From an uncultured Bacillota bacterium (lineage in GTDB: Bacteria; Bacillota_I; Bacilli_A; RFN20; CAG-826): a stretch of DNA of 64,000 bases. Positions 1,267-41,257 of the stretch are shown here, piece by piece. The position numbers were made by a program, and so were the translations under genes. Where the stretch lies: contig CASEFL010000004.1 in the NCBI GenBank assembly GCA_949287245.1, positions 41,499-105,498 of the forward strand, given 5' to 3'. Position 1 is the stretch's first letter. Every line of letters starts with the position of its first letter. Below the pieces are notes generated by a model. The model saw nothing but the letters and a program-made list of their open reading frames with translations. It made no database searches and was not told where the DNA came from.

Positions 1267-1295
1267 ACTCTATTTCTATAAAAATAAGTATTCAA
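1267..1295 (-). promoter_or_regulatory. Putative sigmaA promoter of the 622..1236 gene
   Basis: TTGAAT-N17-TAGAGT about 30 nt upstream of the ATG. Confidence 0.35.
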
Positions 1296-1410
1296 GATTC
1301 TACCTAGTCCTTTTTATGAGGCTAAAGAAAAATATAAATTTCTCACTATTCTTAAATAAGTGCTTTTAGAAAAAAGTTTTTATTAACAATTCCTCTACTG
1401 ATCTCAAAAG

Positions 1411-2097: not shown

Positions 2098-2128
2098 ACA
2101 GTTATTAATTTACAATTAAAAGAAAAAA

Positions 2129-3415: not shown

Positions 3416-3442
3416 TAAGGACTCCTTTAAAACTCATGCCTA

Positions 3443-3471
3443 ATATTAAAAATTACTTCGGTATGAATCAA
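3443..3471 (-). promoter_or_regulatory. Putative sigmaA promoter of the lipoprotein cluster
   Basis: TTGATT-N17-TAATAT upstream of the RBS at about 3422-3428. Confidence 0.45.
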
Positions 3472-3588
3472 GCGATTCTAATCTACTCACCTATACGAAA
3501 AAGATACAAAAAATCGAGAAAACATCTTTCTTCTTTTCACAAAAAATAAGGAAAACTCTTACAAATAACTTCTTTTATTTTTAAAGAT

Positions 3589-4353
3589 TCACAAAATAGT
3601 TTTCTTCTCCTTCTTTTGAAAATGCATATAGAAAACAAGAAAAAGAATGGTCGTAATAGTAAGCACCACTTGAGGCACGAACATCCCCATATAAACCTCG
3701 CCCATATAGTGATAAGGATCATTAATGTATTCATAATAACCTACACACCACAAAGAAGAACCAATAAGAGAAAAGATGGATGCGATAATCGCATTTACAC
3801 TGCAAATGGAGAAGAACGTGTTCTTTTTAAAGGGAATAAAAAAGCCAACAAGTCCTTCGATAAGAAGAGAAATCACCAAGAGAAAAGCAATAAGATTTAG
3901 AAGTACGCCAAGAAAATAACAAGGATTAGAATGAAGCCACGCACTTCCTTGTAAGACGTTATAAAAATTTAACTCCTCTACCAAAGAAACTTGATAAGAA
4001 GGATTTGATATAGAAGCGACATTTTTCCCTATGGCAGGAAGTGTGTAAAGAGAAAGAACCGCAATCATCAAAAGAAAGAGAAAGAAATAACTATATCTTT
4101 TCTTTGGAAGAGAACGGAAATAATCGATAATCGTCTCGCCTTTTTCTTTCCTTCCATCGCTTTTCCCTAAAAGATAATCCGTACTCACTTCAAATAAGGA
4201 AGATAACTTCATTAAGGTAGAAATATCTGGTTCGGAAAGTCCCAGTTCATATTTTGAAAGAGCTTGCCGAGATAAACCAAGATATTCCGCTAAATCCTCC
4301 TGACTCATTCCCTTTTCTTTCCGTAAGGCAACTAGTCGATCTTTAAATTCCAT
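3589..4353 (-). CDS. XRE/Cro-C1 helix-turn-helix regulator fused to a multi-pass membrane domain
   Basis: LRKEKGMSQEDLAEYLGLSRQALSKYELGLSEPD...STDYLLG is a classic HTH_3; about 4 hydrophobic segments follow. Confidence 0.88.
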   Translation of the reverse strand: MEFKDRLVALRKEKGMSQEDLAEYLGLSRQALSKYELGLSEPDISTLMKLSSLFEVSTDYLLGKSDGRKEKGETIIDYFRSLPKKRYSYFFLFLLMIAVLSLYTLPAIGKNVASISNPSYQVSLVEELNFYNVLQGSAWLHSNPCYFLGVLLNLIAFLLVISLLIEGLVGFFIPFKKNTFFSICSVNAIIASIFSLIGSSLWCVGYYEYINDPYHYMGEVYMGMFVPQVVLTITTILFLVFYMHFQKKEKKTIL

Positions 4354-4452
4354 GCCCTTTCCTCCTTGAAGGTAAAGTATAGCAAAACTCTCTTTTAAGG
4401 TAGCAACCTTCTGTTGCAGGGCGCTCTTTTCTTTTGCACTCTTTTTTCTAAG

Positions 4453-4487
4453 AAAAAAGGCCTTAAAGGATTGCTCCTTTAAAGCCT
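4453..4487 (-). terminator. Intrinsic terminator after rpoC
   Basis: Minus strand GGCTTTAAAGGA-GCAA-TCCTTTAAGGCC followed by a T-run. Confidence 0.85.
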
Positions 4488-4504
4488 AATTTTCAAAAGA
4501 TTAC

Positions 4505-17934: not shown

Positions 17935-18528
17935 TTAATCATTTAGGTCAATTTCTGAGAAATCAAGTTCAACAGGTGTTACCCGACCAAAGAATACCGT
18001 ATTGACCATAACGGTATGTTTTTCCTCATCAATGGCAGTAATTTCGCCAGATGTTCCCTCTAAGGGCCCAGAAATGACTTTTACATTCGCGCCAACTTTA
18101 TAACGGGCATACATTTCAGGATCGAAGATACCCATTCTCTTAAGGACAGGTTCCATTTGTTCTTTGGCAACAGGGGTAGGTAAGGTTCCCCCACCAGAAG
18201 AACCGGCAATACCCGTAACGCCCGGAGTATTTCGGACAACAAACCATGCTTCACGGGTCATCTTCATTTCAATGAATAAATAACCAGGGAATAAATTGAT
18301 TTTTTTGGTTTTCCCTGTCGCAATTCCGTCTTTTAAAACAGGCACTTCTTGTTCACAAATTAAGATCTGTTTAATTAAATCTTCCATGCCATAACTTTTT
18401 CTTCTTTTTACCAAGTTATCCATGGTTTTTGTTTCATGTTGTGCATAGGTGGTAACAATATACCAACCATATTCCATGCCTAATTTCTTCTCTTCTTCGC
18501 TAAGAGTATCGACATCATTTTCTGCCAT
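17935..18528 (-). CDS. nusG: Transcription factor NusG (preferred start 18528, TAATG overlap with secE)
   Basis: WYIVTTY...LFPGYLFIEM...VRNTPGVTG; KOW motif VKVISGPLEG...VFFGRVTPVELDF. Confidence 0.96.
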   Translation of the reverse strand: MAENDVDTLSEEEKKLGMEYGWYIVTTYAQHETKTMDNLVKRRKSYGMEDLIKQILICEQEVPVLKDGIATGKTKKINLFPGYLFIEMKMTREAWFVVRNTPGVTGIAGSSGGGTLPTPVAKEQMEPVLKRMGIFDPEMYARYKVGANVKVISGPLEGTSGEITAIDEEKHTVMVNTVFFGRVTPVELDFSEIDLND

Positions 18529-18728
18529 TACTGTAATCCTCCAAAGGCGTCCTTTAATTGTTGAATTAAGGAGGCTCCTGCTAAATCTTCTAAAGCTAAA
18601 CAAATTGCAACAAATAAGGCAATTACAATGACGACAAGAATCGTCGCCCAAAGCTTATCGCGGCTTGGCCAACGAATCCGCTTTCCTTCTTTAACAACTT
18701 CTTTTAAATATTTTACCGGTGGTGTCAT
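18528..18728 (-). CDS. secE: Preprotein translocase SecE
   Basis: YLKEVVKEGKRIRWPSR plus one TM segment; rpmG-secE-nusG synteny. Confidence 0.9.
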   Translation of the reverse strand: MTPPVKYLKEVVKEGKRIRWPSRDKLWATILVVIVIALFVAICLALEDLAGASLIQQLKDAFGGLQ

Positions 18729-18962: not shown

Positions 18963-20054
18963 TTATATGGCCTCATATTGAGCATATAAAGTTAAGTTAT
19001 CCATAACAGGAGTAAGGGAGGTAAAGTGGCCGGAATTGGGGGTTAGAATTTGATCGGTCCACCAACCTGCAAAAGTAAATCCCTCCTTTTTACAAAGAGG
19101 AAGGCTATAGGAAGGGATTGTGTGACCTTCTTCTACACGAATCGAGGTTGGATCCGAGGAATTCACAAATTCCCCACCATTTGCGTTAAATGTCACAATG
19201 TAAGTATTTGTAGGAGCAACAACCGAGTCCCCTTCTAAACGCATTTGTAATACCCAAGCACCCTCTTCTTTCACAAAAATTGTTCCTTCTGAGGTATTAA
19301 AATAAAAGTCTCCGTCATTTCCTTGATTGCCTCGAGGATCTCCATTTCCATAAAGCCATTTTGTTGCTTGAGGTTTAGGGAAAGAAACTTCATTCATAAA
19401 TCCTGAAGTGTACGTAATAACAAAACGGTAAGAATCTCCATCATCTTCAAGCGTAATAAAGGCAATTCCATCACCTCTTAAATCCGAAAGAGGAATTTGG
19501 ATAAGAGAAGGTTCCCTATCTGGATCATCATAAGTAATTTGTAAAACTAAATAGTCTTGATTGTCGTATTGAACCCTTTCAATCGAGGCAATACTTGTTC
19601 CTTTTTCACCTTTAGGAATCGAAATCCGAACAGGTTCACGGTCATCCGTAAAATGGAAAACAAGAATAGTCGCACCATCTTCGCCTGCTTCCACGCCAAT
19701 CGATTCAATTCCTACTCCATCAATTCCTTGAACAATAGGAACTTCCATAACATAGGGAGGACGATTATCTGTATAAGTAATGGTAATCGTTAGTTTTGAA
19801 GTTTCTTCATCAAAACTTGATTCGATATTGGCAATCCCAGTTCCATCTTCTCCTTCTGGCAAAGTAAAAGAAAAAGGCGGTTCATCTTCGGAATCAAAAG
19901 TAATGGTAATTACCGTCTCTCCTTCTTCGTTCACACTAGAAGTAATTCCTTCAATTAAGAACCCGCTATCTCCTGTGGCAAAAAAGGTTCCGCATGAACT
20001 TAAACCGAGTAAGCCAATAACGCTTAGTAAGAATGACGCCCACATTTTCTTCAT
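18963..20054 (-). CDS. Lipoprotein with five ~40-aa repeats and a C-terminal InlB B-repeat-like domain
   Basis: Lipobox LSSC; repeats containing GEDGTGI, GIDGVGI, GEKGTSI, RGDGI; C-terminal VTFNANGG...KEGFTFAGWW...LTLYAQY. Confidence 0.8.
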   Translation of the reverse strand: MKKMWASFLLSVIGLLGLSSCGTFFATGDSGFLIEGITSSVNEEGETVITITFDSEDEPPFSFTLPEGEDGTGIANIESSFDEETSKLTITITYTDNRPPYVMEVPIVQGIDGVGIESIGVEAGEDGATILVFHFTDDREPVRISIPKGEKGTSIASIERVQYDNQDYLVLQITYDDPDREPSLIQIPLSDLRGDGIAFITLEDDGDSYRFVITYTSGFMNEVSFPKPQATKWLYGNGDPRGNQGNDGDFYFNTSEGTIFVKEEGAWVLQMRLEGDSVVAPTNTYIVTFNANGGEFVNSSDPTSIRVEEGHTIPSYSLPLCKKEGFTFAGWWTDQILTPNSGHFTSLTPVMDNLTLYAQYEAI

Positions 20055-22450
20055 AAATTTCCTCCTCGAGAATATAAGATTGATACATCAGGACTTTGTC
20101 CAAATGTGGAAGGTACACCTTCTCCTCTTGTTGATAAATAGAAACGGAAGGGATGAAAGCCCGTGGCAAGAGGTACACAACGGGCCAAAATTTCTGCTAA
20201 TCCATTTTCAGTTGGCGTTAAACCATCTCCAGATAAACAAGCTTTTGCAAAATCGATTGAAATTTCTTCACCAATCGGTAACTCGTTTTCCTCATAAATT
20301 AATGAAGAAAGATTCAAACCGCCACCATAGAAACCAGCAATTGGACAAACGTAACTCTTAATTTCTTCCCCTTCACTTACATCATAAAGATAATCTTTAT
20401 TTTTTGCTTCCCGTAGTAATAAATTCTTTAAAGGGAAATAAGAATCAATCGGAAGACGCCCTTCAAAATAGCCGGATAAAAGTTCTCCCAAACGTTCTTC
20501 GACAAGGCAAGATACGTCAATAGAGTCTCCTGCTTTCCAGTCATAGAAGCGAATATCTCCTTTTAACGTTAACTCGTTAGGATAAGAAGTTCCGCCAATT
20601 TTATCCGGTAAAAAACTTGGGGCCTCGGGAAGCATAGACATAACTGTCTCCACAAAAGAAGGAAGTCCATTATATAAATAAGGCCCATTAAAGTATGATT
20701 CAAAGGCAATCGGTAAGATTCCAGAACGCCCAAAAAGAGTATCTTCCACGGTAAGTTGGTGGGGCTTGATGGTTGAAACATCAGCATCTAGCCCACTTTG
20801 CATAATGTTTAAAGCATCAAGTGCCCCTAAAGCATAATCACGATCGGTTAAGGCGCTTGTTAATAGGTAATCGGCATATCCATTTTCTTTATCCATAAAG
20901 GAAGAAATGGAACCATTAAATTTTTCTCCTCCATATTGGATAGATATCGTTTTGTTATCATTGGTCTCTAAATAGGAATCAGAACCAATCTTTAACAAAA
21001 ATTCCCTGCAATTCTCCACTAAAGAATTCGATAATTCAAATCCATCACCATCTTGAATGCGAACATTATTCCTTCCGTTTCGGATAAATGAATTCGAAAT
21101 TTTTACATTTTTCCCTTTAATGTCGACAACCGTTCCAACATACTCAAGATTATATAAATTGTTTGTGTCATCCACATTTTGTAAAGCAACATCGTCCAAA
21201 ACAAGATTATCTCCATCTAAATACAAGCCTACATTATCTTGGCCATAAGATTTCATAACGGGATAATCAATTAAGCCAATAGAAATAAAGGTTAAAGGTC
21301 CATGAAATAAATCTTCTTCACCAGGAGTTAATACGCCCGTGTAACTATTAATTTTCCCATGGTTTGGATAACAAAGTTCTTGCATGGAAATCCGAAAGCC
21401 ATTCCCGTAAAAATCTTTCTGTACATGAATGCCTGCATATAAACGCTTTCTTTCTTCAAGCTTTGAGGGGTCGTTATTTTCTTCATGAAGAACATACTCT
21501 TCAATGTATTTACTTTGATAAGTCGTTTGAAAGGAAAATACATCATCTTTAAATGAATTCATCTTTTGCAAAGCAAAATCATAATGACCAAATAAGCGTG
21601 TATTTGCGCTTAAAAATTCATTCGTATAAGCACCTGAACCATCTTTTTTATAAGTAGAAGAAAGGGATAAAAGGTTTCTTTGTAAACAAACAATTTCCCC
21701 ATTCTCACTATCATTTGTCGCAAGAAGTAAATCATCATAGTCGTAAACATTGACACCATTTTCAACAATTTCAAACGTATAACTTTGGGTGATAAACTCC
21801 ATTTCTTTTAAGGCAAAATCTAAGGTAGCGATTCCACTTCCTTTAATCGTTACTTCTCCATTTTTATAGGTAACATTAGAAGAAGTAGATATAAGAATTG
21901 CTTCATCTTTTGGAACATCAGAAAAACTTTCCACTTCTAAGGTAATTTTTGCTTCTTGTTTCGCCCCAACATCATCAAAGTCATATTCCCCATATTTTCT
22001 TAAGGAATAAAAACTTGTTCCCGAGGCAGGGGCATTTAAATCATTAATAATAATCGCTCCATTCTCGTAAATTTTCGCATTTAGACTTCGCGAAACTGTC
22101 CCTTTTTCATTTTGACAAGTTAAACGAACATCTCCTTCCTTTTTTGCCTCAAGATAAAATTCGTCGTTATCGTGAATAATTACGGCATAAGTTTCCTCGC
22201 TTTGATCAATATTGGAAACAGTCCAAATTAAATCATTTCCTGGAGAAAGTTCTAAATCAGAATTAATGATTGGCTCTGCTTCAAGTAAGTAGCCTTGTTC
22301 CCGCACTTTAAAAGCTTCTTGGTCACGATAATCCCAACGAATTCCAGCAATATCTACGGCAACAACATTTTCTAAAACAACAATGCCAGCAAAAACAAGC
22401 AGAGCAACCGCAAAGGGCGCAGCAAGTAAAACACCTAACGTTTTTTTCAT
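20051..22450 (-). CDS. Large membrane-anchored surface protein (Ig-like modules, possible beta-helix region)
   Basis: N-terminal hydrophobic anchor; beta-rich segments; N/D-rich parallel-strand pattern VVDIKGKNVKISNSFIRNGRNNVRIQDGDGFELSNSLVEN. Confidence 0.6.
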   Translation of the reverse strand: MKKTLGVLLAAPFAVALLVFAGIVVLENVVAVDIAGIRWDYRDQEAFKVREQGYLLEAEPIINSDLELSPGNDLIWTVSNIDQSEETYAVIIHDNDEFYLEAKKEGDVRLTCQNEKGTVSRSLNAKIYENGAIIINDLNAPASGTSFYSLRKYGEYDFDDVGAKQEAKITLEVESFSDVPKDEAILISTSSNVTYKNGEVTIKGSGIATLDFALKEMEFITQSYTFEIVENGVNVYDYDDLLLATNDSENGEIVCLQRNLLSLSSTYKKDGSGAYTNEFLSANTRLFGHYDFALQKMNSFKDDVFSFQTTYQSKYIEEYVLHEENNDPSKLEERKRLYAGIHVQKDFYGNGFRISMQELCYPNHGKINSYTGVLTPGEEDLFHGPLTFISIGLIDYPVMKSYGQDNVGLYLDGDNLVLDDVALQNVDDTNNLYNLEYVGTVVDIKGKNVKISNSFIRNGRNNVRIQDGDGFELSNSLVENCREFLLKIGSDSYLETNDNKTISIQYGGEKFNGSISSFMDKENGYADYLLTSALTDRDYALGALDALNIMQSGLDADVSTIKPHQLTVEDTLFGRSGILPIAFESYFNGPYLYNGLPSFVETVMSMLPEAPSFLPDKIGGTSYPNELTLKGDIRFYDWKAGDSIDVSCLVEERLGELLSGYFEGRLPIDSYFPLKNLLLREAKNKDYLYDVSEGEEIKSYVCPIAGFYGGGLNLSSLIYEENELPIGEEISIDFAKACLSGDGLTPTENGLAEILARCVPLATGFHPFRFYLSTRGEGVPSTFGQSPDVSILYSRGGNL

Positions 22451-24051
22451 ACGTAATCCACCCTCATTGTTTTAAAGTACTTTGGACATTTCTTAAAGAA
22501 AAGGAAGAAAAGAGTAAGAAAGAAAGCAAAATACAGGAAAAACATCATTAAATAAATCGCATATCCCGGAACCTTTAAAAAGACCATTCCAAAGTGGAAA
22601 AGTGCATAAAGAATCGGCATAAGAAGCGAATAAAGAGCAAGAAGAGATGTGCCTCCGTTTCTTTTTTCTGAAAGCCTACGGAAATCATCAAAAGCCCCAA
22701 GAATATTTAAAGAAAGAATAAATAAGGTACCTAAGGCTAAAATTTCAAAGAAAATGCCTACAGAAATTAAAGAAAAGGAAGCAAGGACAATATCCGTTAA
22801 TACCAAGGAAAGAAAAGAAACCGTAACCGAAACAAGAAGTTTTGCTTCCATCTGTTTAATTGGTGCTACAGGAATTTCTTTCATCACAATTCTTCCTACC
22901 CCTTCCCGCGTTAATCCATCGGCAGCGGACCCAGAAATTAAAGAAGCAAAAAGAAGAACTAAGACGATAGTTACTCCGTTAATAAGCTCAGGGAAATAAA
23001 CTAAAAACATTTCCATCTTGTCATAAAGAAGTTGATTTAAACTTTCAATAACGACATAACCTAAGAAGGGCTGCATGATGAGTAACGAAGTAAAACTAAA
23101 TAAATAAGAGGAATTGCGGAAAAGCAAAACAAATTCTTTCTTCACTAACGAGAAAAACACGGAATGGTGTTTCTCTCCCATAAAAGTAAGTCTTCCAGAA
23201 GGAGGAGTTTCTTTTCTTTTGTTTCTCCTTTTTAGTAAGAAAGAAAGAAGAAAGAACCCAACAACAAGCATCAAAAGAACTAAACCAGCATAAAGAAGAA
23301 GATTGGAAGCATAGTTCCCAACACCGCACATCATTCCTAATAAAGGATAAACAGGAACAAAATATGGTGCACTAGCAGCAAGACCTTTTAAGAAAGGTTC
23401 CGAAAAATAAGAATCGAGTTTTGCTCCATCAAGAATGCTTAAAAATAAAGAGAGAATTTGTTGATAGAAAAAACAAAGAGAAACAACCGCAATAGAGGCG
23501 ATAACAAATTGCAAAATCCGATAACGACGCATTATTTTCATAAAGAAAGAAAATGGTCCAAGAAGCAAAGAAAGAAGCCCAAGAGAAAATAATGAAATGA
23601 AAACTGGATACAAAAAGGTAAAAGTGTAATAAATCGCACTATAACCTCGAGCAATCCCAAAACTTAATAAAATAGGAAGAGATAAAACAAAAGAAGAAAC
23701 AACCAATTTCACGTAAAAATACAGGCCTTTTGCAAGGATTTTTTGATCATCCGAAATTGGTAAAGGAGAAAGAATCAAATGATCTTCTTTCCTTTCTAGT
23801 GCTTTTAAAGAAGAGGGAAGTGCACTAAGAGAAGAGATCATCATTGCAAGAAATAAATACAGAACTAAAAAGTCAAAAGTACCAAGAGTGCTTAACTCAC
23901 GAATCTTAATATCAATCTCCCAAAATAAGTATCCTAAAAGCGCCATAAAGATAAGCGAGGCAAAAATCTTTAAACTTATGGCCAATACTTGCCTTCTTCC
24001 CCGAAAGGATGAGGAAGATTGAAACTCCTGAATAAGCAAAGAAAGGATCAT
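22447..24051 (-). CDS. ABC exporter permease (multi-pass, ABC-2-like)
   Basis: About 12-14 hydrophobic segments in two halves; LVKKEFVLLFRN; 4-nt overlap with the ABC ATPase gene. Confidence 0.8.
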   Translation of the reverse strand: MILSLLIQEFQSSSSFRGRRQVLAISLKIFASLIFMALLGYLFWEIDIKIRELSTLGTFDFLVLYLFLAMMISSLSALPSSLKALERKEDHLILSPLPISDDQKILAKGLYFYVKLVVSSFVLSLPILLSFGIARGYSAIYYTFTFLYPVFISLFSLGLLSLLLGPFSFFMKIMRRYRILQFVIASIAVVSLCFFYQQILSLFLSILDGAKLDSYFSEPFLKGLAASAPYFVPVYPLLGMMCGVGNYASNLLLYAGLVLLMLVVGFFLLSFLLKRRNKRKETPPSGRLTFMGEKHHSVFFSLVKKEFVLLFRNSSYLFSFTSLLIMQPFLGYVVIESLNQLLYDKMEMFLVYFPELINGVTIVLVLLFASLISGSAADGLTREGVGRIVMKEIPVAPIKQMEAKLLVSVTVSFLSLVLTDIVLASFSLISVGIFFEILALGTLFILSLNILGAFDDFRRLSEKRNGGTSLLALYSLLMPILYALFHFGMVFLKVPGYAIYLMMFFLYFAFFLTLFFLFFKKCPKYFKTMRVDYV

Positions 24052-24860
24052 GCTTCTTCCTTTCCTTGAATATGAAGGAAGATTCTTCTTAATTCTTTTC
24101 TTTTAAATGGCTCTAAAGAAAAGTCAATTAAAGAGGCAATGGTTCCTTCTTTGATGATAGCGACGCGGTCACAAACCTCCGCGACGAGTTCAATACTATG
24201 AGAAGTTAAGAAAATTGTTTTTGATGATTTTGTATAAGCGTGCATCATTTCCACTAATGTTTGATAGGCCATAATATCTAAACCTACCGTTGGCTCGTCT
24301 AAAACCCATAACATTGGATTATGAATTAAAGAAGACATTAAGCGTAGTTTTTGTTTCATACCATGGGAGTAACTTCCTACGGGTTTTGCTAAATCTTCTT
24401 CCGTTAAATCAAATTTTGTTTTTAAAAAGGCAAAATTCTTTTGGAAAACTTCTAAATCCATATCGTAGGAAGAGGCAATAAATTCCATAAATTCATTCCC
24501 TGTCATTAAGTCATAGACTAAGGGCTCAGAAGGAACATAACCAATTTGAGATTTAATTTCTAAGGGATATTCTTTTTGCGATAAACCAAAAATTTTTAAA
24601 GTCCCTTGATCAAATTCTTTTAAACCAACAAGGCAATCAATAAACGTGGACTTTCCTGCTCCATTTTTTCCTAAAAAGCCAAAACATTCTCCCTTTTTCA
24701 CTTGGAAAGATAAGCCTTTTAAAACTTCATGATTCCCATAGGATTTATGAATATCCTCCGCGATGATGGTTTCTTCTGGCAAAGTACCCATTAAAACTTG
24801 TTCATCAAAATCAATGACATCCGTTTTCTTTTCTTTCTCTTTATGATTAAACCACTTCAT
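24048..24860 (-). CDS. ABC transporter ATP-binding protein (preferred start 24860)
   Basis: Walker A GKNGAGKS, signature YSHGMKQK, Walker B VLDEP, H-loop TSH. Confidence 0.95.
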   Translation of the reverse strand: MKWFNHKEKEKKTDVIDFDEQVLMGTLPEETIIAEDIHKSYGNHEVLKGLSFQVKKGECFGFLGKNGAGKSTFIDCLVGLKEFDQGTLKIFGLSQKEYPLEIKSQIGYVPSEPLVYDLMTGNEFMEFIASSYDMDLEVFQKNFAFLKTKFDLTEEDLAKPVGSYSHGMKQKLRLMSSLIHNPMLWVLDEPTVGLDIMAYQTLVEMMHAYTKSSKTIFLTSHSIELVAEVCDRVAIIKEGTIASLIDFSLEPFKRKELRRIFLHIQGKEEA

Positions 24861-24861
24861 A

Positions 24862-26139
24862 TTATCTCCCCCAGAATGATTTGACCCAAATTTCTCCCGC
24901 TTTCCCTTGGGCATTGCAGTAAACATAACGACTTTGACAGTGGCTACAAGAAGCCTCTTCCCCTTGCCTTAAAGGAGAAATGGAGGAACCACATACAGGA
25001 CAACGTGTAAGAGTCTCTTGATGAAACGGGATAAGTGTTGTCATCGAATTTAAGAAAGAAACAATTTGATCTTCCATACCTTCTTCATCTTTTAGGATAA
25101 AAGCATTTTCTTCTGAACCTTTTCCTTTCTCATATAAACAATAAGCACTAGGATAACGAGGATCTTCCTTTCCTTCTAAATTGATAGCGTGCATGGAAGT
25201 AAACCCTTTATAGGAACAAGAAAAGAGCAAAATTTCCTCTTCTTGACTCATATGAATTTGCACCCCATTTCGAGAAAAAGAGAAAGGAATAAGAATTGCC
25301 TTCCCTTCTTTAATGGTAACATTCATAGTTGCTTTAGAACGCATCTTGCTTTTTAAAACACGATCAAAGGCTAATAAGAAACGAATATCCCGAAGAAAAG
25401 GAGAAGATGTGTGTTGAGATTGATGATTCATCACATAAGTAAAAACTTCCCGATATAAAGGATGATGAAGAAGAATGTTTGTTGGAATAAAAGAAGTGGG
25501 AATCTTTTCTTTTTCTAAAAATTGATAAAAACGAGAATGTTTAATCGCTGATATTCTTCGTAACAAACGGCGAATTTCTTCTTCTTTTTTATTTGCTTGG
25601 TAACGTTCCACTAGGCCCCTTCCAAGTTTTGCAGAGTGTGTCGCTAAATCAAGAAAGAAAGAAGAAGAACCAAAAATAGCTTCTTCTCTTTGATAAGAGG
25701 ACTGGACAGAACTCACTTCTTTTTGTGCACCCTTTAAGGCACCTTTCGCTTCTTGTTGGAGTAAAGTTATTGCGCGAATAATGACAAGATTTTCATATAG
25801 ATTAATCGAATCTTCATAACGAATGGCATGAACATATTCTGGTGCCATCCCGTATCCCTCCTTTTCTTTCCATAAAGGAGTGTCTCTTAAGGTAAGCAAG
25901 AAAGCTTCTGGGGTTAATGCGCCTGAGGTTTCCGAACGAACTAAGGTATCTTCGGCTTGCGATTTCATTAAAGGCTTACGCACAATAGCCTCAATATGCA
26001 AAAGAATTTCTTTTCTATTTTCAATAAAAGAGGATAAAGAAAGCTCCGCGTTTTTCCGCGCTTCTTCTGTGCGATTCCGTAAAATACGGGCACTAAGAAT
26101 GTCACCTTCTTTTAAGGATGCTTTCTTTACCTCTTCCAT
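24862..26139 (-). CDS. DUF2357-like (McrC-position) protein with C-terminal Zn ribbon
   Basis: Follows the McrB-like gene; INLYENLVI and IPTNILLHHPLYREVF recall DUF2357 motifs; CPVCG...CSHC at the C-terminus. Confidence 0.6.
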   Translation of the reverse strand: MEEVKKASLKEGDILSARILRNRTEEARKNAELSLSSFIENRKEILLHIEAIVRKPLMKSQAEDTLVRSETSGALTPEAFLLTLRDTPLWKEKEGYGMAPEYVHAIRYEDSINLYENLVIIRAITLLQQEAKGALKGAQKEVSSVQSSYQREEAIFGSSSFFLDLATHSAKLGRGLVERYQANKKEEEIRRLLRRISAIKHSRFYQFLEKEKIPTSFIPTNILLHHPLYREVFTYVMNHQSQHTSSPFLRDIRFLLAFDRVLKSKMRSKATMNVTIKEGKAILIPFSFSRNGVQIHMSQEEEILLFSCSYKGFTSMHAINLEGKEDPRYPSAYCLYEKGKGSEENAFILKDEEGMEDQIVSFLNSMTTLIPFHQETLTRCPVCGSSISPLRQGEEASCSHCQSRYVYCNAQGKAGEIWVKSFWGR

Positions 26140-26142
26140 AAA

Positions 26143-27948
26143 TTAAGCAAATCTCCTGAGATAATGAGCGATTAACTCACGACAAAGTGGGAAGCCCTTC
26201 TTTCCATATTCAACATCGATTACTTTTAATAATGTACGTAAACCTTCACCCACATATTCTTCAAAACGCCCTTCTAGTTTACTAAGAACTTTTCTGGCAA
26301 ACATAAAGTCGATGGCATCATCCTTGTTTCCGCCTGCCGCAACAAAAACAGGAACAAAAAGTTCGATTTGATTCCGAATACGATTTCCGAAGGCTAATTC
26401 AAATTTTTCATAGCAGAACTCCGCTAAAATATTCAATTTCTTATTATCTTGAGCGTTCATTTGATAATCTTTTTCCCCTTCAGCTTCCGCAAATAAAGCA
26501 AGAAGTCCTTGGTAAGATAAAGCGATAGGAGAAGTTTCACCTTCCACCTCAAAAGGTTCATTTTGATCATTAAAAGATAACACAATCGCCCGGTCATACA
26601 CCTTATCGGTAATGGTATAAGTTGAGTCATCTTTATTCGCTGTACCAATAAACCAAGTCGTCGAAGGAATATGAAGTCTCCCTTCATCTAAATGCATAGG
26701 AGGTTCAAAACCATAAGGAAGTTGCATAATATCAAGTACCCAGTCTTCCATTGGATATTCCATGATGGATAAGAAATCCGCAAAATAATATTCAACACGC
26801 GAAATGTTCATTTCATCCAAAACCATGATGTTAATGGAACGTTCTCGAAAAGATGCGCGATAAAGTCTTTTTAAAAATGGAGTTTCCGAATACGAACGAG
26901 AAAAATCATTATAAAAACCTAAAAGAGAGGTTCGGTCACGCCATGTTGCTTGAACGGGAGCAAAGAAACTCTTCTCCCCAATAAAGGTACTGAAGTATCT
27001 TGCTAAGGACGATTTACCAGTACCAGATAAACCTTCTAAGATAATAAATCTAGAAGAGGCAAGACCGGCAAGAAAAGCGCGAATGGCTTGAATATCATAA
27101 TAAAGCTTTTCTTCTTTTGCTAAATACATGCGGAAACGCTCTGCTAAAGAAGTTAAAGTAATTTTCCCATCGTCTAAATATTCTTTTGCAAATTCATTTA
27201 GTTCTTGCGTCTCAATTTCCGTTAATCCTGGAAAAACTTGTGTTTTATTGCCTAATGGAGCAACTTTATTCGAAGATGCTCCGCTAGAAGAAGAAAGACT
27301 TCCATTTTCTGAGGAGGAAGTTCCTGCTCCAAATGTCGCGGCTAAAGAGCCTTGAAGTTTCGCTTTTGCTTCATTAATTAATGCACTATGTTCTTCACTT
27401 GTTAAAGAAGCATTATCTCCTTGATCAATTTCTAATGGTTGATTGAAACGTTTTATTGAAAGAATAAGAAGGACAAGGAAGAAAATTATAAGGAATAAAA
27501 CAAGGAAAATTAAAAACCCAATAAGGAAGGCTTCACCACAATAGATAAAGGAATTGCTGAGATATTGACCATTTTCAATGGGTGAATGAGCAGCAACACC
27601 AATACCAACAGCTAACCCATAACAGATAACAAAAGAAGCCACATAAATTAACCAATACTTTAAAGAATTGGGATTTTGATTTTTATTTTGTGCAATCCGA
27701 ATTTCAAAAATAATTGCCGCAGCAAAAAGCAAAGAATAAACCGCAAGCATAATTAATAAAATTGAGCTAGGCATTGAAGCATTGATGATAGGAAAGGCAA
27801 AAGCCTCTGCAATAGATTGAATCGGATTCCCTTGGGCAATAAGAGAAGAATCGCCGTCAAGAAAAAACCCTGTGATTAAGACGAATAGCATGTAGAAAAA
27901 TACTGACGCTATTGCAATCCCATCAATCCTTTTAAATTTTGCAACCAT
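26143..27948 (-). CDS. McrB-like AAA+ NTPase with N-terminal transmembrane domain
   Basis: Walker A GLSGTGKS, Walker B VLDEMNISRVEYYFADFLS, GTANKDD, YDRA; about 4 TM segments in residues ~10-165. Confidence 0.85.
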   Translation of the reverse strand: MVAKFKRIDGIAIASVFFYMLFVLITGFFLDGDSSLIAQGNPIQSIAEAFAFPIINASMPSSILLIMLAVYSLLFAAAIIFEIRIAQNKNQNPNSLKYWLIYVASFVICYGLAVGIGVAAHSPIENGQYLSNSFIYCGEAFLIGFLIFLVLFLIIFFLVLLILSIKRFNQPLEIDQGDNASLTSEEHSALINEAKAKLQGSLAATFGAGTSSSENGSLSSSSGASSNKVAPLGNKTQVFPGLTEIETQELNEFAKEYLDDGKITLTSLAERFRMYLAKEEKLYYDIQAIRAFLAGLASSRFIILEGLSGTGKSSLARYFSTFIGEKSFFAPVQATWRDRTSLLGFYNDFSRSYSETPFLKRLYRASFRERSINIMVLDEMNISRVEYYFADFLSIMEYPMEDWVLDIMQLPYGFEPPMHLDEGRLHIPSTTWFIGTANKDDSTYTITDKVYDRAIVLSFNDQNEPFEVEGETSPIALSYQGLLALFAEAEGEKDYQMNAQDNKKLNILAEFCYEKFELAFGNRIRNQIELFVPVFVAAGGNKDDAIDFMFARKVLSKLEGRFEEYVGEGLRTLLKVIDVEYGKKGFPLCRELIAHYLRRFA

Positions 27949-36504: not shown

Positions 36505-37845
36505 TTAGAAGAGATTTTTCGCTAGTAGCAAGGACCGTAAGCGATCACTTTCTGCAAAATTTTTCTCGTTTCTAGCTCTATCATACTCCTCATAAAGCGC
36601 CTTGTCCTCAGCAGTTAATGTAGGAAGAGTAACTTTAATCCCTAAAAGATCTAAATCACCAAGAAAAATACCCAAAGCATCTTCTAAAGAAAGGTAACTT
36701 TTTCCTAAAATCGCTTGATTTAAAGTTTTTAATTCTTCGTATAAAGAAGTTAAGGCATTGGGAGTATTTAAATCGTCTTGTAAGGCGGATAGAACAGCAT
36801 CAGAAGGTGTTCGATTTAAGGAATCCAAAGAAATATTGCGTCTTTGCAGGGATATTGCTGCTTTTTTACTAGCATTAACAATTTGATTGTACTTTTTTAA
36901 AGCCTCTTTCATGGTATCTTCTGCAAATGTGGCAGGAGCACGGTAATGCGCTGCAAGAAGCATTAAACGGAAAGGCATTCCCCCATATTCTTTCACCACA
37001 TCTTTCATTAAAACAACATTGCCAAGAGACTTGCTCATCTTCTCCCCGCGAATGTCAATAAAACCGTTATGCATCCAATATCGAGCTAAAGTATTTCCAT
37101 TATGTGCTTTGGCTTGAGCCATTTCGTTTTCATGATGAGGAAATTTCAAATCAAAGCCACCCCCATGAATATCAATCAATCCATTTTCCTCTCGGAAGAT
37201 AGAATTAATCATGACGCAGCATTCTGTATGCCATCCTGGTCTTCCTTCTCCCCAAGGAGAATTCCAGCGAATTCCTACATTTGTTTTTTTCCATAAAGCA
37301 AAATCCAAAGGATCTTCTTTTTTCTCATCTACCGCGATTCTTGCTCCCGCTTCTAGTTCTTCAATTGAATTGCCAGATAATTCTCCATAATGCGGAATCT
37401 TTCTTACTCTTAAATAAACATCCCCATCGCTAGCATAAGCCGAACCATTTAAAACTAAATCTTCAACATAGCGAATAATATCGTCCATACATTCGGTTGG
37501 TCGTGGAGTGTATGTAGGTTGAAGCGCACCCACTTCATCCACTAAATGACGATATTCTTTGATAATAGAATCCGATAATTCTTTCTCTGTAATTCCTAAT
37601 TCTAAGGCTCTTTGAATAATCTTATCATCAACATCGGTGTAGTTACTTACCGCGGTAACTTGATACCCCAAAGCGAGCAAAAGACGTCTTAAAACGTCAA
37701 AAGTTATAACCGGACGAAAATTTCCGACATGGGGATCGTTATAAACAGTCGGACCACAAAAATATAAAGAAACAACTCCTGGCACTAAAGAATGAAAGTC
37801 TTCGACTTTTTTTGTTAATGAATTATAAATTCGTAGCATCAACAC
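36505..37845 (-). CDS. cysS: Cysteinyl-tRNA synthetase
   Basis: CGPTVY, HVGN, GRPGWHTEC, FPHHENE, KMSKS. Confidence 0.98.
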   Translation of the reverse strand: MLMLRIYNSLTKKVEDFHSLVPGVVSLYFCGPTVYNDPHVGNFRPVITFDVLRRLLLALGYQVTAVSNYTDVDDKIIQRALELGITEKELSDSIIKEYRHLVDEVGALQPTYTPRPTECMDDIIRYVEDLVLNGSAYASDGDVYLRVRKIPHYGELSGNSIEELEAGARIAVDEKKEDPLDFALWKKTNVGIRWNSPWGEGRPGWHTECCVMINSIFREENGLIDIHGGGFDLKFPHHENEMAQAKAHNGNTLARYWMHNGFIDIRGEKMSKSLGNVVLMKDVVKEYGGMPFRLMLLAAHYRAPATFAEDTMKEALKKYNQIVNASKKAAISLQRRNISLDSLNRTPSDAVLSALQDDLNTPNALTSLYEELKTLNQAILGKSYLSLEDALGIFLGDLDLLGIKVTLPTLTAEDKALYEEYDRARNEKNFAESDRLRSLLLAKNLF

Positions 37846-39446: not shown

Positions 39447-41246
39447 TTATTCTTTAGAAGGATAACGATCTCGGTGATTGTTATAAGAGGTATGGAGCAA
39501 CTTCTCGGCCTTTTCTCCTCCTACCTCGCCAAGATAATTTTTATATAAAGCGATAACCTCAGGATTGTTATGGCTTTGACGGATAACCTTTTTCTCATCA
39601 ATAGAGTAAAGAATATTCGCCCGTTTTTCTAAATACGTATCAAGGATGTCCTTCCCTTCTTGAGGAAGTAAGGAGGGTTTTACAAATGGTTGACCTCCTC
39701 CATTTAAACAACCGCCAGGGCAACCCATAATCTCAATGAAAGCATAAGGACTTTTCCCAGCTTTAATTTCCTCAAGTAAAGGCTTTGCGTTAATCGCACC
39801 TGAAGCAACCGCCACTTTAATTACTTGATCACCAATTACAATTTCCGCTTCCTTAATGCCTTTAAACCCGCGAACTTCCGTAAAATCCACCTTTTTATAT
39901 TCTTCACCAGTTAAAGTGTGATAAGCCGTTCTTAAAGCCGCTTCCATTACACCACCAGTAACACCAAAAATCACTCCAGCACCTGAACTTTCTCCCATCA
40001 GAGAATCAAAAGATTCTTCTTTTAATTCGTCATAAAGAATACCAGAACGTTTAATAAGAAGAGCAAGTTCTCTTGTCGTTAAAACAGCATCAACATCATG
40101 ATAACTTGTGGCCCTATTTTCTTCCCGTTTTGCCTCATATTTTTTTGCTGTACAAGGCATAATGGAAACAACAAAAATATCTTTCGGATCAAGATTCTCC
40201 TTGGAAGCAAAATAACTTTTTGTTAAAGCCCCTTGCATCTCATGAGGAGATTTGCATGTAGATAAATGCGGAATGAGTTCAGGATAGAAATATTCTAAAT
40301 AGTTGACCCATCCGGGTGAACATGACGTAATTTGCGGCAAAACCCCGCTCTTTTTACGGATTCTTTCTAAAAGCTCATGACTTTCTTCTAAGATAGTAAC
40401 ATCAGCTCCAAAGTTGACATCAAAGACTTTCTTAAAACCTAAACGGTGAAGGGCGGCAACCATCTTTCCTTCTCCGTTTTCTTCCCCAATTTTATGGCCA
40501 AATTCTTCACTAATCGCGGCACGTACTGCGGGAGCAACTTGACAGACTACGTATTTTCCTTGAGCAAAAGCCTCATCAACAAGATCAATTTCGCGTTTCT
40601 CGCTTAAAGCACCAGTTGGGCAAACATTAACGCATTGTCCACACTGTAAACAAGGAACTTCACTAAAAGAACGATTGCCAATTGGGGCAACAATTGTTTT
40701 AAACCCTCGATTTTCAAACCCTAAAATGCCAATGCCGGTTGCTTCTTTGCAACGTTCAATACATCTACCACATAAGATGCATTTACTTGTGTCACGAATC
40801 AATCCTGGAGCAATTTCATCTAAAGTTGTAGAAGTCTTCTCTCCTAAATACTTTCCCGTTTCTGCGCCAGTTAAATTCGCAACATCAAGAAGTTCACACT
40901 TCCCGTTTTTCGCACACGTTTGACAGTCTTTCGAATGATTGGACAAAAGAAGTTCCACGGCAGTTTTTCTTGCGCGAGTTGCTAAAGGAGAAGAAATTAA
41001 AATTTCAAATCCTTTCGCGGCAGGAACTTCTTTAACAGGATAAACACAAGAAGCAAATAAACGTGAACCACGGGGATTTTTAATTTCTACAAGGCAAACT
41101 CGACAAGAAGCTAATGAATTATGACCATGATTCCAATAGCAAAGCGTAGGAATACGATAACCACATTCTCTTGCAGCTTCTAAGACGGTTAGGGAGTCAT
41201 CTACTTCGTAAAGATGACCTTCAATCTTAATTTCGATGTTTGGCAT
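39447..41246 (-). CDS. hydA: [FeFe]-hydrogenase catalytic subunit, group A3-type
   Basis: H-cluster motifs TSCSPGW, MPCTAKKYE, EIMGCPGGCLNGGGQP; N-terminal [2Fe-2S], His-ligated [4Fe-4S] (HSKDCQTC) and 2x[4Fe-4S]. Confidence 0.95.
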   Translation of the reverse strand: MPNIEIKIEGHLYEVDDSLTVLEAARECGYRIPTLCYWNHGHNSLASCRVCLVEIKNPRGSRLFASCVYPVKEVPAAKGFEILISSPLATRARKTAVELLLSNHSKDCQTCAKNGKCELLDVANLTGAETGKYLGEKTSTTLDEIAPGLIRDTSKCILCGRCIERCKEATGIGILGFENRGFKTIVAPIGNRSFSEVPCLQCGQCVNVCPTGALSEKREIDLVDEAFAQGKYVVCQVAPAVRAAISEEFGHKIGEENGEGKMVAALHRLGFKKVFDVNFGADVTILEESHELLERIRKKSGVLPQITSCSPGWVNYLEYFYPELIPHLSTCKSPHEMQGALTKSYFASKENLDPKDIFVVSIMPCTAKKYEAKREENRATSYHDVDAVLTTRELALLIKRSGILYDELKEESFDSLMGESSGAGVIFGVTGGVMEAALRTAYHTLTGEEYKKVDFTEVRGFKGIKEAEIVIGDQVIKVAVASGAINAKPLLEEIKAGKSPYAFIEIMGCPGGCLNGGGQPFVKPSLLPQEGKDILDTYLEKRANILYSIDEKKVIRQSHNNPEVIALYKNYLGEVGGEKAEKLLHTSYNNHRDRYPSKE

Positions 41247-41257
41247 AATTTGCTCCT

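What the first reader, a model, noticed from the sequence alone, without database searches (positions are those of the whole stretch)
26143..27948. McrB-family AAA+ NTPase whose DNA-reading domain is replaced by about four TM helices
Seen: hydrophobic helices over residues ~10-165, a Ser-rich linker (GTSSSENGSLSSSSGASS), then GLSGTGKS, DEMNISRVEYYFADFLS, GTANKDD and YDRA. Known: McrB proteins normally have a soluble N-terminal DNA-recognition domain and an NxxD-type GTPase motif. Inference: a membrane-tethered hexameric motor that either remodels or extrudes envelope substrates, or senses phage DNA entry at the membrane.
Basis: partly seen in the sequence, partly recalled or inferred. Interest (0 to 1): 0.78.

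Follow-up and report, generated by a model that had tools for sequence, protein, structure and literature searches.

The report
Membrane-anchored McrB-like GTPase with nuclease-less partner
This gene encodes a restriction-enzyme-type motor protein (McrB family) that has swapped its DNA-reading domain for a four-helix membrane anchor; it pairs with a nuclease-less McrC-like protein and sits in a conserved operon for secreted surface proteins, so it most likely acts on the cell envelope and does not cut DNA.

Summary
ORF 26143-27948 (-) encodes 601 aa: four TM helices (N-in/C-in), a disordered Ser-rich linker, and a McrB-type AAA+ domain. The family profile matches E. coli McrB (hhalign 91.6%) and not the MoxR protein RavA (11.8%). 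The signature is N-x-D-[D/E], not classic NxxD. That places it in the 'NxD' branch of McrB GTPases (CoCoNuT/CoCoPALM; Bell et al. 2024).

The next gene (24862-26139) is a fast-evolving McrC-like protein: DUF2357 plus a zinc ribbon, with no conserved nuclease motif.

This pair is the invariant core of a large unannotated family (696 clusters at 50% identity with E<=1e-30; about 30% of the top 150 have 4 TM). In the window and in 17 of 22 assessable related gut-Bacilli loci, the pair lies in a ~15-kb operon. The operon also encodes a SipW-type signal peptidase, three or four probable SipW substrates and an ABC transporter.

A sister clade with 1-2 TM segments shows the same SipW linkage and matches the published one-paragraph description of 'CoCoPALM'. 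The window gene is therefore a 4-TM variant of a named but uncharacterised kind.

The function, GTP-driven envelope or surface-protein assembly versus membrane-level defence, is inferred and not shown.

The parts
26143..27948 (-). 4-TM McrB-like (NxD-clade) AAA+ GTPase gene, 601 aa
   Evidence: ORF; hhalign to E. coli McrB 91.6%; AAA_5 hit in 46/46 family members; PADLOC PDC-M26A 4e-40, AAA domain only
27451..27930 (-). Membrane domain, residues ~7-166: four TM helices, N-in/C-in
   Evidence: Hydropathy and positive-inside rule; AF2 helices at pLDDT ~90; four TM segments retained in divergent homologues; only D31 is >=90% conserved
27244..27450 (-). Disordered Ser-rich linker with one helix (184-206), residues ~167-235
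   Evidence: AF2 pLDDT <50 at 171-183 and 204-230
26146..27243 (-). Cytoplasmic module, residues 236-601: FPxLxxID motif (239-246), AAA+ core, helical lid
   Evidence: AF2; Foldseek hits to McrB/MoxR/MCM AAA+ folds; conservation
27010..27033 (-). Walker A, GLSGTGKS (residues 306-313)
   Evidence: Identical in all 120 homologues
26806..26826 (-). Walker B region, MVLDEMN (residues 375-381)
   Evidence: aligns with E. coli McrB IIDEINR
26620..26646 (-). Signature motif GTANKDDST (residues 435-443): N438-x-D440-[D/E]441
   Evidence: Family variants GTAN[K/R/T]D[D/E]ST; aligns with E. coli McrB GLMNTADRS
24862..26139 (-). Partner gene, 425 aa: McrC-like (DUF2357 with long helical hairpin), a non-conserved middle domain, and a C-terminal CPxCG...CxxC zinc ribbon; no conserved PD-(D/E)xK motif
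   Evidence: Alignment A1 invariants Y115-E116-N117, T220-N221 and 4 Cys; DUF2357 in 10/20 homologues, best E 7.9e-10, above the Pfam cutoff in L013 and L017; full-length homologues beside every 4-TM McrB examined; start codon 3 nt after the AAA stop
30925..31977 (-). SipW-type (archaeal/ER-type) signal peptidase I, 350 aa
   Evidence: TIGR02228 65.9 bits against cutoff 51.85; syntenic in related loci
31980..34314 (-). Three paralogous ~245-280-aa secreted or anchored proteins whose N-terminal K/R + TM segment ends in a GF[SA]T[WY]I[IV]G-like motif; probable SipW substrates
   Evidence: Alignment A4; no Pfam or NCBIfam hit; the equivalent genes in sister-class loci carry a ..T[FY]AWFT.. N-terminal motif, which I recall as the classical SipW-cognate signature (not matched by any curated model)
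27981..30947 (-). 988-aa secreted protein with a similar N-terminal signal (GSSSFYIE); present in only some related loci
24048..24926 (-). ABC transporter ATPase (DrrA/ABC-2 type); the likely true start is the internal ATG at ~24860
   Evidence: ABC_tran 2.2e-23; TIGR01188 4e-51
22447..24051 (-). 534-aa polytopic membrane protein (~10-11 hydrophobic segments), presumed ABC permease
   Evidence: syntenic
20051..22450 (-). 799-aa signal-anchored extracytoplasmic protein, no family match
18963..20054 (-). 363-aa lipoprotein (LSSC lipobox) with a Listeria-Bacteroides repeat
   Evidence: Flg_new 5.5e-12
34313..34342 (-). Best sigma-70-like promoter match, at the head of the cluster (TTGACG-18-TATAGT)
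   Evidence: consensus match only

Best explanation
SHOWN
- The gene encodes a polytopic (4-TM, N-in/C-in) membrane protein whose cytoplasmic part is a McrB-type AAA+ NTPase of the 'NxD' clade.
- It is translationally coupled to, and always found with, a McrC-like partner. The partner has a DUF2357 domain with a long helical hairpin and a C-terminal zinc ribbon, and it has no conserved nuclease catalytic residues.
- In this genome and in related uncultured gut Bacilli, the pair sits inside a ~15-kb co-directional cluster of tightly spaced or overlapping genes. The cluster runs: three small secreted paralogues, a SipW-type signal peptidase, a 988-aa secreted protein, TM-McrB, the McrC-like partner, an ABC ATPase, a permease, a 799-aa exported protein and a lipoprotein.
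- A sister GTPase clade with 1-2 TM segments has the same SipW linkage and fits the published description of CoCoPALM.

INFERRED, by analogy with solved McrBC complexes
- Six subunits form a ring held at the inner face of the membrane by 24 TM helices.
- The partner's helical stalk inserts into the ring pore and stimulates GTP hydrolysis.

INFERRED from context
- The output is not DNA cleavage.
- The output is mechanical or regulatory work on a membrane process, most likely export, processing or polymerisation of the SipW-dependent surface proteins encoded alongside.
- In short, a restriction-type motor has been exapted for envelope or surface-structure biogenesis.
For: Architecture.

McrB and not MoxR:
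- hhalign 91.6% (E 8e-7, 164 columns, Walker A to the N-x-x-D region) against E. coli McrB, versus 11.8% (P-loop only) against RavA.
- tblastn links to DUF3578- and EVE-domain McrBs that have DUF2357 or nuclease-domain neighbours.

NxD clade:
- GTAN-x-D-[D/E]ST across the family.
- The nearest soluble relatives sit in loci with a UPF1-like helicase, a McrB-like protein and a DUF2357 protein.

Partner:
- DUF2357 in 10/20 homologues and above the Pfam cutoff in L013 and L017; precomputed PF09823 in L118 and L119.
- Full-length homologues with YEN and CPxCG..CxxC sit next to every 4-TM McrB examined.
- No conserved acidic or Lys catalytic residues.

Operon and synteny:
- SipW lies upstream in 17 of 22 assessable related genome loci.
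- Gene overlaps and RBS.
- The cluster lies between a sigH-like sigma factor/rlmB/cysS and nusG/rpoBC, which is a chromosomal core region.

Independent SipW link in the 1-2-TM clade.

Precedent: Bell et al. 2024, PMC11090510.

Strong constraint: the AAA half is >=50% identical across the subfamily, with long invariant blocks. It is 76% and 71% identical to its L001 and L002 orthologues, a range similar to the neighbouring housekeeping genes.

Nearly absent from phage genomes, and plasmid hits cover the AAA domain only.
Against: - There is no experimental data for any member.
- In more divergent 4-TM lineages the pair stands alone among housekeeping or EPS genes with no SipW (0 of 5 assessable loci). 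The SipW link is therefore not universal, and the module's basic activity must be independent of it.
- The small 'substrate' proteins match no TasA or other family.
- The known TasA/SipW fibres of Bacillus need no NTPase (background knowledge; see also PMC11580942).
- The family's roots are in defence systems, and the partner evolves fast and carries variable C-terminal fusions such as GNAT, which is typical of conflict systems.
- Hexamer formation, partner insertion and GTP use are extrapolated and were not tested.
- The partner model is of moderate quality only (pLDDT 69) and gave no significant fold match.
Confidence: 0.5

Rival explanations
1. It is a membrane-level anti-phage or anti-plasmid system derived from McrBC/CoCoNuT. 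The TM-McrB/McrC-like pair senses infection at the membrane, for example injected nucleic acid bound by the zinc ribbon or a perturbation of the surface structure that phages use as a receptor. It then responds by abortive infection, with the 4-TM domain acting as a membrane-disrupting effector, or by blocking entry.
For: - The clade is nested among defence-type NxD McrB GTPases.
- The PADLOC candidate model PDC-M26A matches at 4e-40.
- The partner is fast-evolving, at 21-27% identity where the GTPase keeps ~50%.
- The partner has variable C-terminal fusions (GNAT) and a neighbouring histidine kinase.
- The pair occurs as a portable two-gene module in varied contexts, once beside a rolling-circle Rep gene.
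- Bell et al. treat CoCoPALM as a CoCoNuT-like system.
Against: - No nuclease, HEPN, helicase or methyltransferase lies in the operon.
- The partner lacks PD-(D/E)xK catalytic residues.
- The PADLOC match covers the AAA domain only, and no partner protein hits any PADLOC model.
- The locus is a conserved chromosomal core region and not a defence island.
- The GTPase is highly conserved and apparently vertically inherited.
- The TM domain conserves only one polar residue.
Confidence: 0.3
2. The pair is a general membrane-associated GTPase switch or remodelling factor, acting for example in membrane-protein quality control or regulation of envelope polysaccharide or protein export. Its adjacency to the SipW cluster is lineage-specific and not mechanistic.
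For: Divergent 4-TM members have no SipW and sit beside housekeeping genes or capsule/EPS genes such as Wzz, glycosyltransferases and Acyl_transf_3.
Against: SipW linkage recurs in two separate GTPase clades. In the window the genes are tightly packed or overlapping in one co-directional cluster.
Confidence: 0.15
3. It is an ordinary MoxR-type AAA+ chaperone with a membrane anchor. This is the first reader's refutation case and also the only public annotation found ('MoxR-like ATPase', JGI).
For: Foldseek ranks the MoxR-family structures 2r44, NorQ and RavA alongside McrB. One JGI record carries the name.
Against: - hhalign probability to RavA is 11.8% over the P-loop only, against 91.6% to McrB.
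- The sensor-1 position carries the McrB-type N-x-D motif.
- The partner is a DUF2357 protein and not a VWA protein.
Confidence: 0.03

Closest known systems
[quoted passage not shown]
   Same: - NxD-type McrB GTPase fused to a membrane-spanning N-terminus.
- DUF2357/McrC-like partner encoded immediately downstream.
- Operon linkage to a SipW-type signal peptidase and small secreted proteins.
- I reconstructed this class from metagenomes (L048 and others). Its partner is homologous to ours (HMM E down to 3e-20).
   Different: - Here the anchor is a 4-helix polytopic domain. It is not a single FtsB/FtsL-like TM plus coiled coil, and no DivIC/FtsL-type hit was found in 46 members.
- The partner is short (425 aa) with a zinc ribbon, where CoCoPALM-type partners are ~770-990 aa with SMC-like coiled coils.
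- An ABC transporter and large exported proteins are added.
- The 4-TM GTPases form their own clade, though weakly supported (bootstrap 42%).
- I could not check whether Bell et al.'s tree includes this clade, because the figure supplement is not held.
CoCoNuT systems, especially the reduced Type II CnuB/CnuC (Bell et al. 2024)
   Same: - NxD GTPase signature.
- The CnuC-like partner layout: DUF2357 with a helical insertion, an inactivated or absent nuclease, and a CPxC zinc ribbon.
- The nearest soluble relatives have a helicase + McrB + DUF2357 layout.
   Different: - No CnuH helicase, HEPN, TerY-P or other nuclease genes.
- No long soluble coiled-coil N-terminus.
- Membrane-anchored.
- Sits in a housekeeping or secretion context.
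Canonical McrBC (E. coli K-12; structures 6HZ4, 6UT5)
   Same: - AAA+ core with Walker A, Walker B and an Asn-containing signature in place of sensor 1.
- Two-gene McrB-then-McrC order.
- The partner carries DUF2357.
   Different: - No DUF3578-type DNA reader.
- NxD, not NxxD.
- The partner has no PD-(D/E)xK motif.
- A single-sequence hhalign of the partner profile against E. coli McrC finds nothing.
sipW-tasA / sipW-bsaA biofilm-fibre operons of Bacillus and Clostridium
   Same: A SipW-type peptidase next to several paralogous small secreted proteins with SipW-type N-termini. Literature: PMC11580942, PMC9674648.
   Different: Those operons contain no AAA+ GTPase or ABC transporter. The small proteins here have no detectable TasA-family similarity.

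Membership tests
McrB-like GTPase (AAA_5, McrB clade) | [quoted passage not shown] | tested here: met
   GLSGTGKS and MVLDEMN; Walker A is identical in all 120 homologues
McrB-like GTPase (AAA_5, McrB clade) | Nx(x)D signature motif at the sensor-1 position | tested here: met
   GTAN-K-D-D; the family pattern is N-x-D-[D/E], and it aligns with the NTAD of E. coli McrB
McrB-like GTPase (AAA_5, McrB clade) | Profile similarity to McrB exceeding that to other AAA_5 subfamilies (MoxR) | tested here: met
   91.6% against 11.8% hhalign probability. The Pfam AAA_5 score of the window protein itself is below the gathering cutoff (18.3 < 22), but all 46 members hit AAA_5.
McrB-like GTPase (AAA_5, McrB clade) | Adjacent McrC (DUF2357) gene | tested here: met
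   The match is at family level; the window's own partner does not reach Pfam significance by itself.
McrB-like GTPase (AAA_5, McrB clade) | N-terminal nucleic-acid-recognition domain | tested here: not met
   Replaced by a 4-TM domain
McrB-like GTPase (AAA_5, McrB clade) | Hexamer formation and McrC-stimulated GTP hydrolysis | not testable with these tools
   No multimer modelling or biochemistry is available
McrC | N-terminal DUF2357 domain | tested here: met
   10/20 family members, best E 7.9e-10; L013 scores 24.6 bits and L017 29.5 bits against a cutoff of 23.3
McrC | C-terminal PD-(D/E)xK nuclease with catalytic D...(D/E)xK | tested here: not met
   No conserved acidic or Lys residues between N221 and C380 in alignment A1; no nuclease Pfam hit
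CoCoPALM (Bell et al. 2024) | NxD-type McrB GTPase | tested here: met
CoCoPALM (Bell et al. 2024) | Association with signal-peptidase-family genes | tested here: met
   A SipW-type gene lies in the same cluster, one gene upstream of the GTPase gene; SipW is present in 17 of 22 assessable related loci
CoCoPALM (Bell et al. 2024) | GTPase fused to an FtsB-like single TM plus coiled coil | tested here: not met
   Four TM helices; no DivIC/FtsB/FtsL hit in 46 members, whereas the sister-class L048 protein gives a weak FtsL hit
CoCoPALM (Bell et al. 2024) | [quoted passage not shown] | tested here: inconclusive
   The partner model has a ~45-residue helical hairpin, and the GTPase has only one short helix in the linker. 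No coiled-coil predictor was run.
CoCoNuT | Tandem nucleases or HEPN, CnuH helicase, extensive coiled coils | tested here: not met
   None of these is found in the cluster
MoxR AAA+ chaperones | MoxR-type AAA core and a VWA-domain partner | tested here: not met
PADLOC candidate PDC-M26 | Both the A and B components present | tested here: not met
   The A model matches the AAA domain only, and equally matches all NxD classes. No partner protein hits any PADLOC model.

The most novel reading that the evidence does not exclude
The McrBC restriction motor has been exapted into a new kind of membrane-embedded machine. It has lost both its DNA reader and its nuclease. A GTP-driven AAA+ ring tethered by 24 TM helices, gated by a zinc-ribbon McrC-like plug, powers or licenses the export and polymerisation of SipW-processed surface fibres in reduced-genome gut Bacilli. 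This would be a filament or secretion engine unrelated to the type IV pilus, sortase or chaperone-usher pathways.
Probability: 0.3. Interest if true: 0.85.

Novelty: new variant of a known kind. Interest (0 to 1): 0.62.

Why it matters
McrBC is the textbook GTP-dependent restriction enzyme. This family is large and conserved (hundreds of clusters at 50% identity, abundant in human and animal gut metagenomes). It keeps the motor and its activator but has lost both DNA recognition and the nuclease, and it is bolted to the membrane.

If the pair drives or controls assembly of SipW-dependent surface structures, it would be a clear case of a defence motor being repurposed. It would also add a new energy source for Gram-positive and wall-less surface-fibre biogenesis in uncultured gut lineages.

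If instead it is a defence system, it would be a McrBC derivative that acts at the membrane without a nuclease, which is equally unexplored.

Either way it makes the 'CoCoPALM' idea testable. That idea has so far appeared as a single paragraph in the literature, and the two-gene core defined here is compact.

Tried and rejected
- phmmer and profile searches of PDB sequences found nothing significant for the GTPase (E. coli McrB only at E 0.99) and only zinc-ribbon hits for the partner.
- Foldseek of the GTPase model could not separate McrB from MoxR or MCM. Foldseek of the partner model (pLDDT 69) found nothing significant.
- hhalign of the partner profile against the single E. coli McrC sequence found no signal.
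- Single-sequence and profile searches for partner homologues in the large database returned only 3 and 9 hits. Homologues had to be taken from syntenic loci instead.
- Pfam and NCBIfam found nothing for the three small secreted proteins or the 988-, 799- and 534-aa proteins. An HMM of the small proteins found nothing in sister-class loci. 'TasA-like' therefore remains unproven.
- The CoCoNuT paper's held supplements contain no CoCoPALM entries. No follow-up CoCoPALM paper and no 'PDC-M26' literature were found.
- The 'SipW + McrB' literature hit was only an E. coli strain genotype.
- The NJ tree was too weakly supported to decide whether membrane anchoring arose once or twice.
- The MoxR reading and membership of the PADLOC PDC-M26 system were considered and rejected.
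Full report
**1. Observation**

The ORF at 26143-27948 on the minus strand is intact: 601 aa, an ATG start and AAGGAGG 7 nt upstream. Exactly this protein is already in public metagenome assemblies.

A Kyte-Doolittle scan finds four hydrophobic segments: 7-32, 49-87, 96-124 and 132-172. Lys and Arg cluster at the N-terminus, in the second loop and after the fourth segment. The first and third loops carry only acidic charges. This predicts N-in/C-in topology with the C-terminal domain in the cytoplasm.

An AlphaFold2 model built on 46 homologues (mean pLDDT 80.9) shows:
- helices 7-30, 59-88, 96-119 and 127-166 at pLDDT ~90;
- a disordered stretch, 171-183 and 204-230, that contains the Ser-rich run;
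- an alpha/beta AAA+ core followed by a helical lid.

All quoted motifs are present at the stated places.

**2. Family assignment**

Pfam AAA_5 is just below threshold for this protein (18.3 bits against a cutoff of 22), but it is hit by all 46 aligned homologues.

Fold comparison puts the model in the MCM/MoxR/McrB/dynein group without separating these families.

A profile-sequence comparison does separate them. The family profile aligns to E. coli McrB with 91.6% probability (E 8e-7) over 164 columns, from Walker A through the signature Asn motif. It aligns to the MoxR protein RavA at only 11.8%, over the P-loop alone. tblastn against plasmids also reaches McrB proteins annotated with the classical DUF3578 and EVE reader domains.

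The one public name found, 'MoxR-like ATPase', is probably wrong at the subfamily level.

**3. The signature is NxD, not NxxD**

Across 120 close homologues and 150 cluster representatives the motif is GTAN-x-D-[D/E]ST. The third position is an invariant Asp, and the fourth is Asp or Glu.

Bell et al. (eLife 2024, PMC11090510) define a major McrB branch by exactly this pattern: NxD, 'usually followed by E or a second D'. That branch contains the CoCoNuT and CoCoPALM systems.

The best soluble relatives fit this branch. On Deinococcus and Polaromonas plasmids they lie in loci with a CoCoNuT-type layout; in the Deinococcus locus, which I scanned, this is a UPF1-like helicase, a hypothetical protein, a McrB-like protein and a DUF2357 protein.

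PADLOC's candidate model PDC-M26A matches only the AAA+ domain. It matches the 4-TM, 1-2-TM and soluble classes about equally, and no partner protein matches any PADLOC model. This is a domain-level relationship and not membership of that system.

**4.

The next gene (24862-26139) starts 3 nt after the GTPase stop codon. On its own it matches no family. It evolves fast, at 21-27% identity in loci where the GTPase keeps ~50%.

I aligned 20 syntenic homologues. The invariant positions are Y115-E116-N117, T220-N221, Y229 and four cysteines in a CPxCG...CxxC ribbon.

Evidence that it is McrC-like:
- Ten of the 20 homologues hit Pfam DUF2357, the McrC N-terminal domain, with a best E of 7.9e-10.
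- Two homologues pass the gathering cutoff.
- Precomputed annotations give PF09823 for distant partners.

No acidic or Lys catalytic triad is conserved in the region where McrC has its PD-(D/E)xK nuclease.

The AF2 model (pLDDT 69) shows a ~45-residue helical hairpin inside the DUF2357 region, a small beta-rich middle domain and the ribbon. Fold search found nothing significant.

This layout resembles the reduced Type II CnuC described by Bell et al.: DUF2357 with a helical insertion, an inactivated nuclease and a CPxC zinc ribbon.

Every 4-TM GTPase examined, including very divergent ones, is followed by a full-length homologue of this partner (E 1e-51 to 1e-64). All of them have the YEN motif and the ribbon. 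In some, extra C-terminal domains such as a GNAT acetyltransferase are added.

The two genes therefore form the invariant core.

**5. Size and structure of the family**

An exhaustive search of 1.84 billion cluster representatives gave 8,050 hits at E<=1e-3, 5,963 at E<=1e-10 and 696 at E<=1e-30.

By my hydropathy scan, the top 150 fall into three architectures:
- ~45 with four TM segments (532-841 aa);
- ~34 with one or two TM segments (mostly ~450-520 aa, range 399-682; GTANNDDST);
- ~71 soluble (most ~650-920 aa).

A bootstrapped NJ tree of the GTPase domain recovers the 4-TM proteins as one clade (bootstrap 42%) and the 1-2-TM proteins as another (57%). Both are separated from E. coli McrB at 100%. 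Deeper nodes are unresolved.

Within the 4-TM domain only Asp31, at the outer end of TM1, is >=90% conserved. A juxta-membrane FPxLxxID motif just before the AAA+ core is almost invariant, and a related RFxxLxxID motif is conserved in the 1-2-TM class. The membrane domain looks like a topologically conserved anchor or scaffold and not like a conserved channel.

**6. Genomic context**

In the window the pair lies in a run of eleven co-directional genes with tiny gaps or overlaps, from 34314 to 18963. In order these are:
- three paralogous ~245-280-aa proteins whose N-terminal K/R + TM segment ends in a GF[SA]T[WY]I[IV]G-like motif;
- a SipW-type signal peptidase (TIGR02228, 65.9 bits against a cutoff of 51.85);
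- a 988-aa protein with a similar N-terminus;
- the GTPase;
- the partner;
- an ABC ATPase;
- a ~10-11-segment membrane protein;
- a 799-aa signal-anchored protein;
- a lipoprotein.

The best promoter-like site sits at the head of the cluster. The cluster lies between a sigH-like sigma factor/rlmB/cysS on one side and nusG, ribosomal-protein genes and rpoBC on the other. This is a chromosomal core region.

Twenty-four related loci from GTDB genomes all come from gut or rumen MAGs of uncultured Bacilli or 'Mollicutes' (Ca. Onthovivens, Scatosoma, Caccosoma, Alloenteromonas). In 17 of the 22 loci with enough upstream sequence, a SipW gene lies upstream of the GTPase gene, and most keep the full gene order.

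**7. The sister class is the published CoCoPALM**

I aligned 1-2-TM representatives and scanned metagenomes, which gave 80 loci.

The ~510-aa GTPases in these loci are typically:
- preceded by a homologue of the window's SipW and by two to four 250-310-aa genes, whose N-termini carry the motif ...T[FY]AWFT...; from background knowledge this is the classical SipW-cognate signature, but no curated model matched these proteins;
- followed by a 770-990-aa gene that my partner HMM hits, with E down to 3e-20.

In the example locus L048:
- the peptidase scores 72.7 bits on TIGR02228;
- the GTPase gives weak McrB and FtsL-like (TM plus coiled coil) hits;
- the partner is full of SMC-like coiled coil.

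This matches, feature by feature, the single paragraph in which Bell et al. name 'CoCoPALM'. They describe GTPases fused to an FtsB-like TM/coiled-coil domain, an association with signal-peptidase-family 'pilus assembly' proteins, and coiled coils on both subunits. They defer analysis to a future paper. No such paper is in the library.

After dereplication at 80% identity, SipW lies within three genes in 14 of 38 GTPase clusters. The clusters without it include a distinct two-paralogue subclass that has no SipW.

**8. Limits of the SipW link**

Five more divergent 4-TM representatives with usable contigs all have the pair but no SipW. Their neighbours are:
- housekeeping genes (ymdB/spoVS; ligA/gatCAB; upp/rluD/lnt);
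- capsule or EPS genes (Wzz, glycosyltransferases);
- in one case a rolling-circle Rep gene.

The module's basic activity therefore does not require SipW. The association has been fixed in at least two lineages.

**9. Mechanism, best estimate**

Shown:
- a membrane-anchored, cytoplasm-facing McrB-type NTPase;
- an obligate McrC-type partner that lacks conserved nuclease catalytic residues;
- operon linkage to a secretion and processing gene set.

Inferred from McrBC structures: a hexameric ring is plugged and activated by the partner's helical stalk, and GTP is the fuel.

Inferred from context: the work is done on a membrane process, most plausibly export, processing or polymerisation of the SipW-dependent surface proteins, and not on DNA.

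I put this at ~0.5. The main rival is a membrane-level defence or abortive-infection system, at ~0.3. It is favoured by the clade's ancestry, the fast-evolving partner and its variable fusions. It is disfavoured by the lack of any nuclease, the conserved core-genome location, and the domain-only PADLOC match. A generic membrane GTPase switch with incidental SipW adjacency gets ~0.15, and a MoxR chaperone ~0.03.

**10. Novelty and verdict**

The kind of system, a TM-fused NxD McrB linked to signal peptidases, has been named but never analysed or tested.

The 4-TM architecture with a short zinc-ribbon partner and an ABC transporter is not described in the text I could read. It fails one defining CoCoPALM feature, the FtsB-like single TM plus coiled coil. 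I therefore rate it a new variant of a known kind.

It is real, abundant in gut metagenomes, essentially unannotated, and offers a compact two-gene handle for experiments. Interest: 0.62.

Noticed in passing
window 30925-31977 (-): The SipW-type signal peptidase is unusually long: 350 aa, against curated SipW-type models of 158-189 positions. It has three hydrophobic segments and an acidic C-terminal tail, yet it passes the TIGR02228 cutoff.
   Followed up: partly
window 24048-24926 (-): The ABC ATPase ORF overlaps the partner gene by 65 nt. The internal ATG near 24860, preceded by GGGGGAG, is the more likely start.
   Followed up: partly
L019 6702-15340 and L020 (rumen Bacilli MAGs): A variant system: a 798-aa 4-TM McrB-like protein, then a 1046-aa partner (DUF2357 + zinc ribbon + GNAT acetyltransferase), a 600-aa protein and a histidine kinase. 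No SipW is present.
   Followed up: partly
L031, L032, L037, L040, L041, L044, L046, L068, L069, L075: A metagenomic subclass with two short TM-McrB paralogues (~430 and ~460 aa) that usually flank a ~500-620-aa gene, which the partner HMM hits in several of these loci. No SipW gene is nearby.
   Followed up: no
L112 (Logan SRR27608057), 540-6745: A divergent 4-TM pair lies beside a Trp-repressor-like HTH gene and a REP_ORF2-G2P rolling-circle replication gene, so it may be on a small mobile element.
   Followed up: no
window 26143-27948, residues 31 and 239-246: Asp31, at the outer end of TM1, is the only residue of the membrane domain that is >=90% conserved across 41 4-TM representatives. 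The FPxLxxID motif before the AAA+ core is nearly invariant, and a related RFxxLxxID motif is conserved in the 1-2-TM class.
   Followed up: partly
window 17935-18651 and 34414-37845: The 15-kb cluster sits between nusG (with ribosomal-protein genes and rpoBC further on) and a sigH-like sigma factor/rlmB/MgtC/cysS. The same flanks occur in the closest MAGs (L001, L002, L004). The sigma factor is much less conserved (33-38% identity) than its neighbours.
   Followed up: partly
window 39447-43141 (-): Two adjacent ~600-aa ORFs (599 and 627 aa) were not examined.
   Followed up: no
P0087 (JGI): The only public name found for a family member is 'MoxR-like ATPase', which the profile comparison contradicts.
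   Followed up: yes
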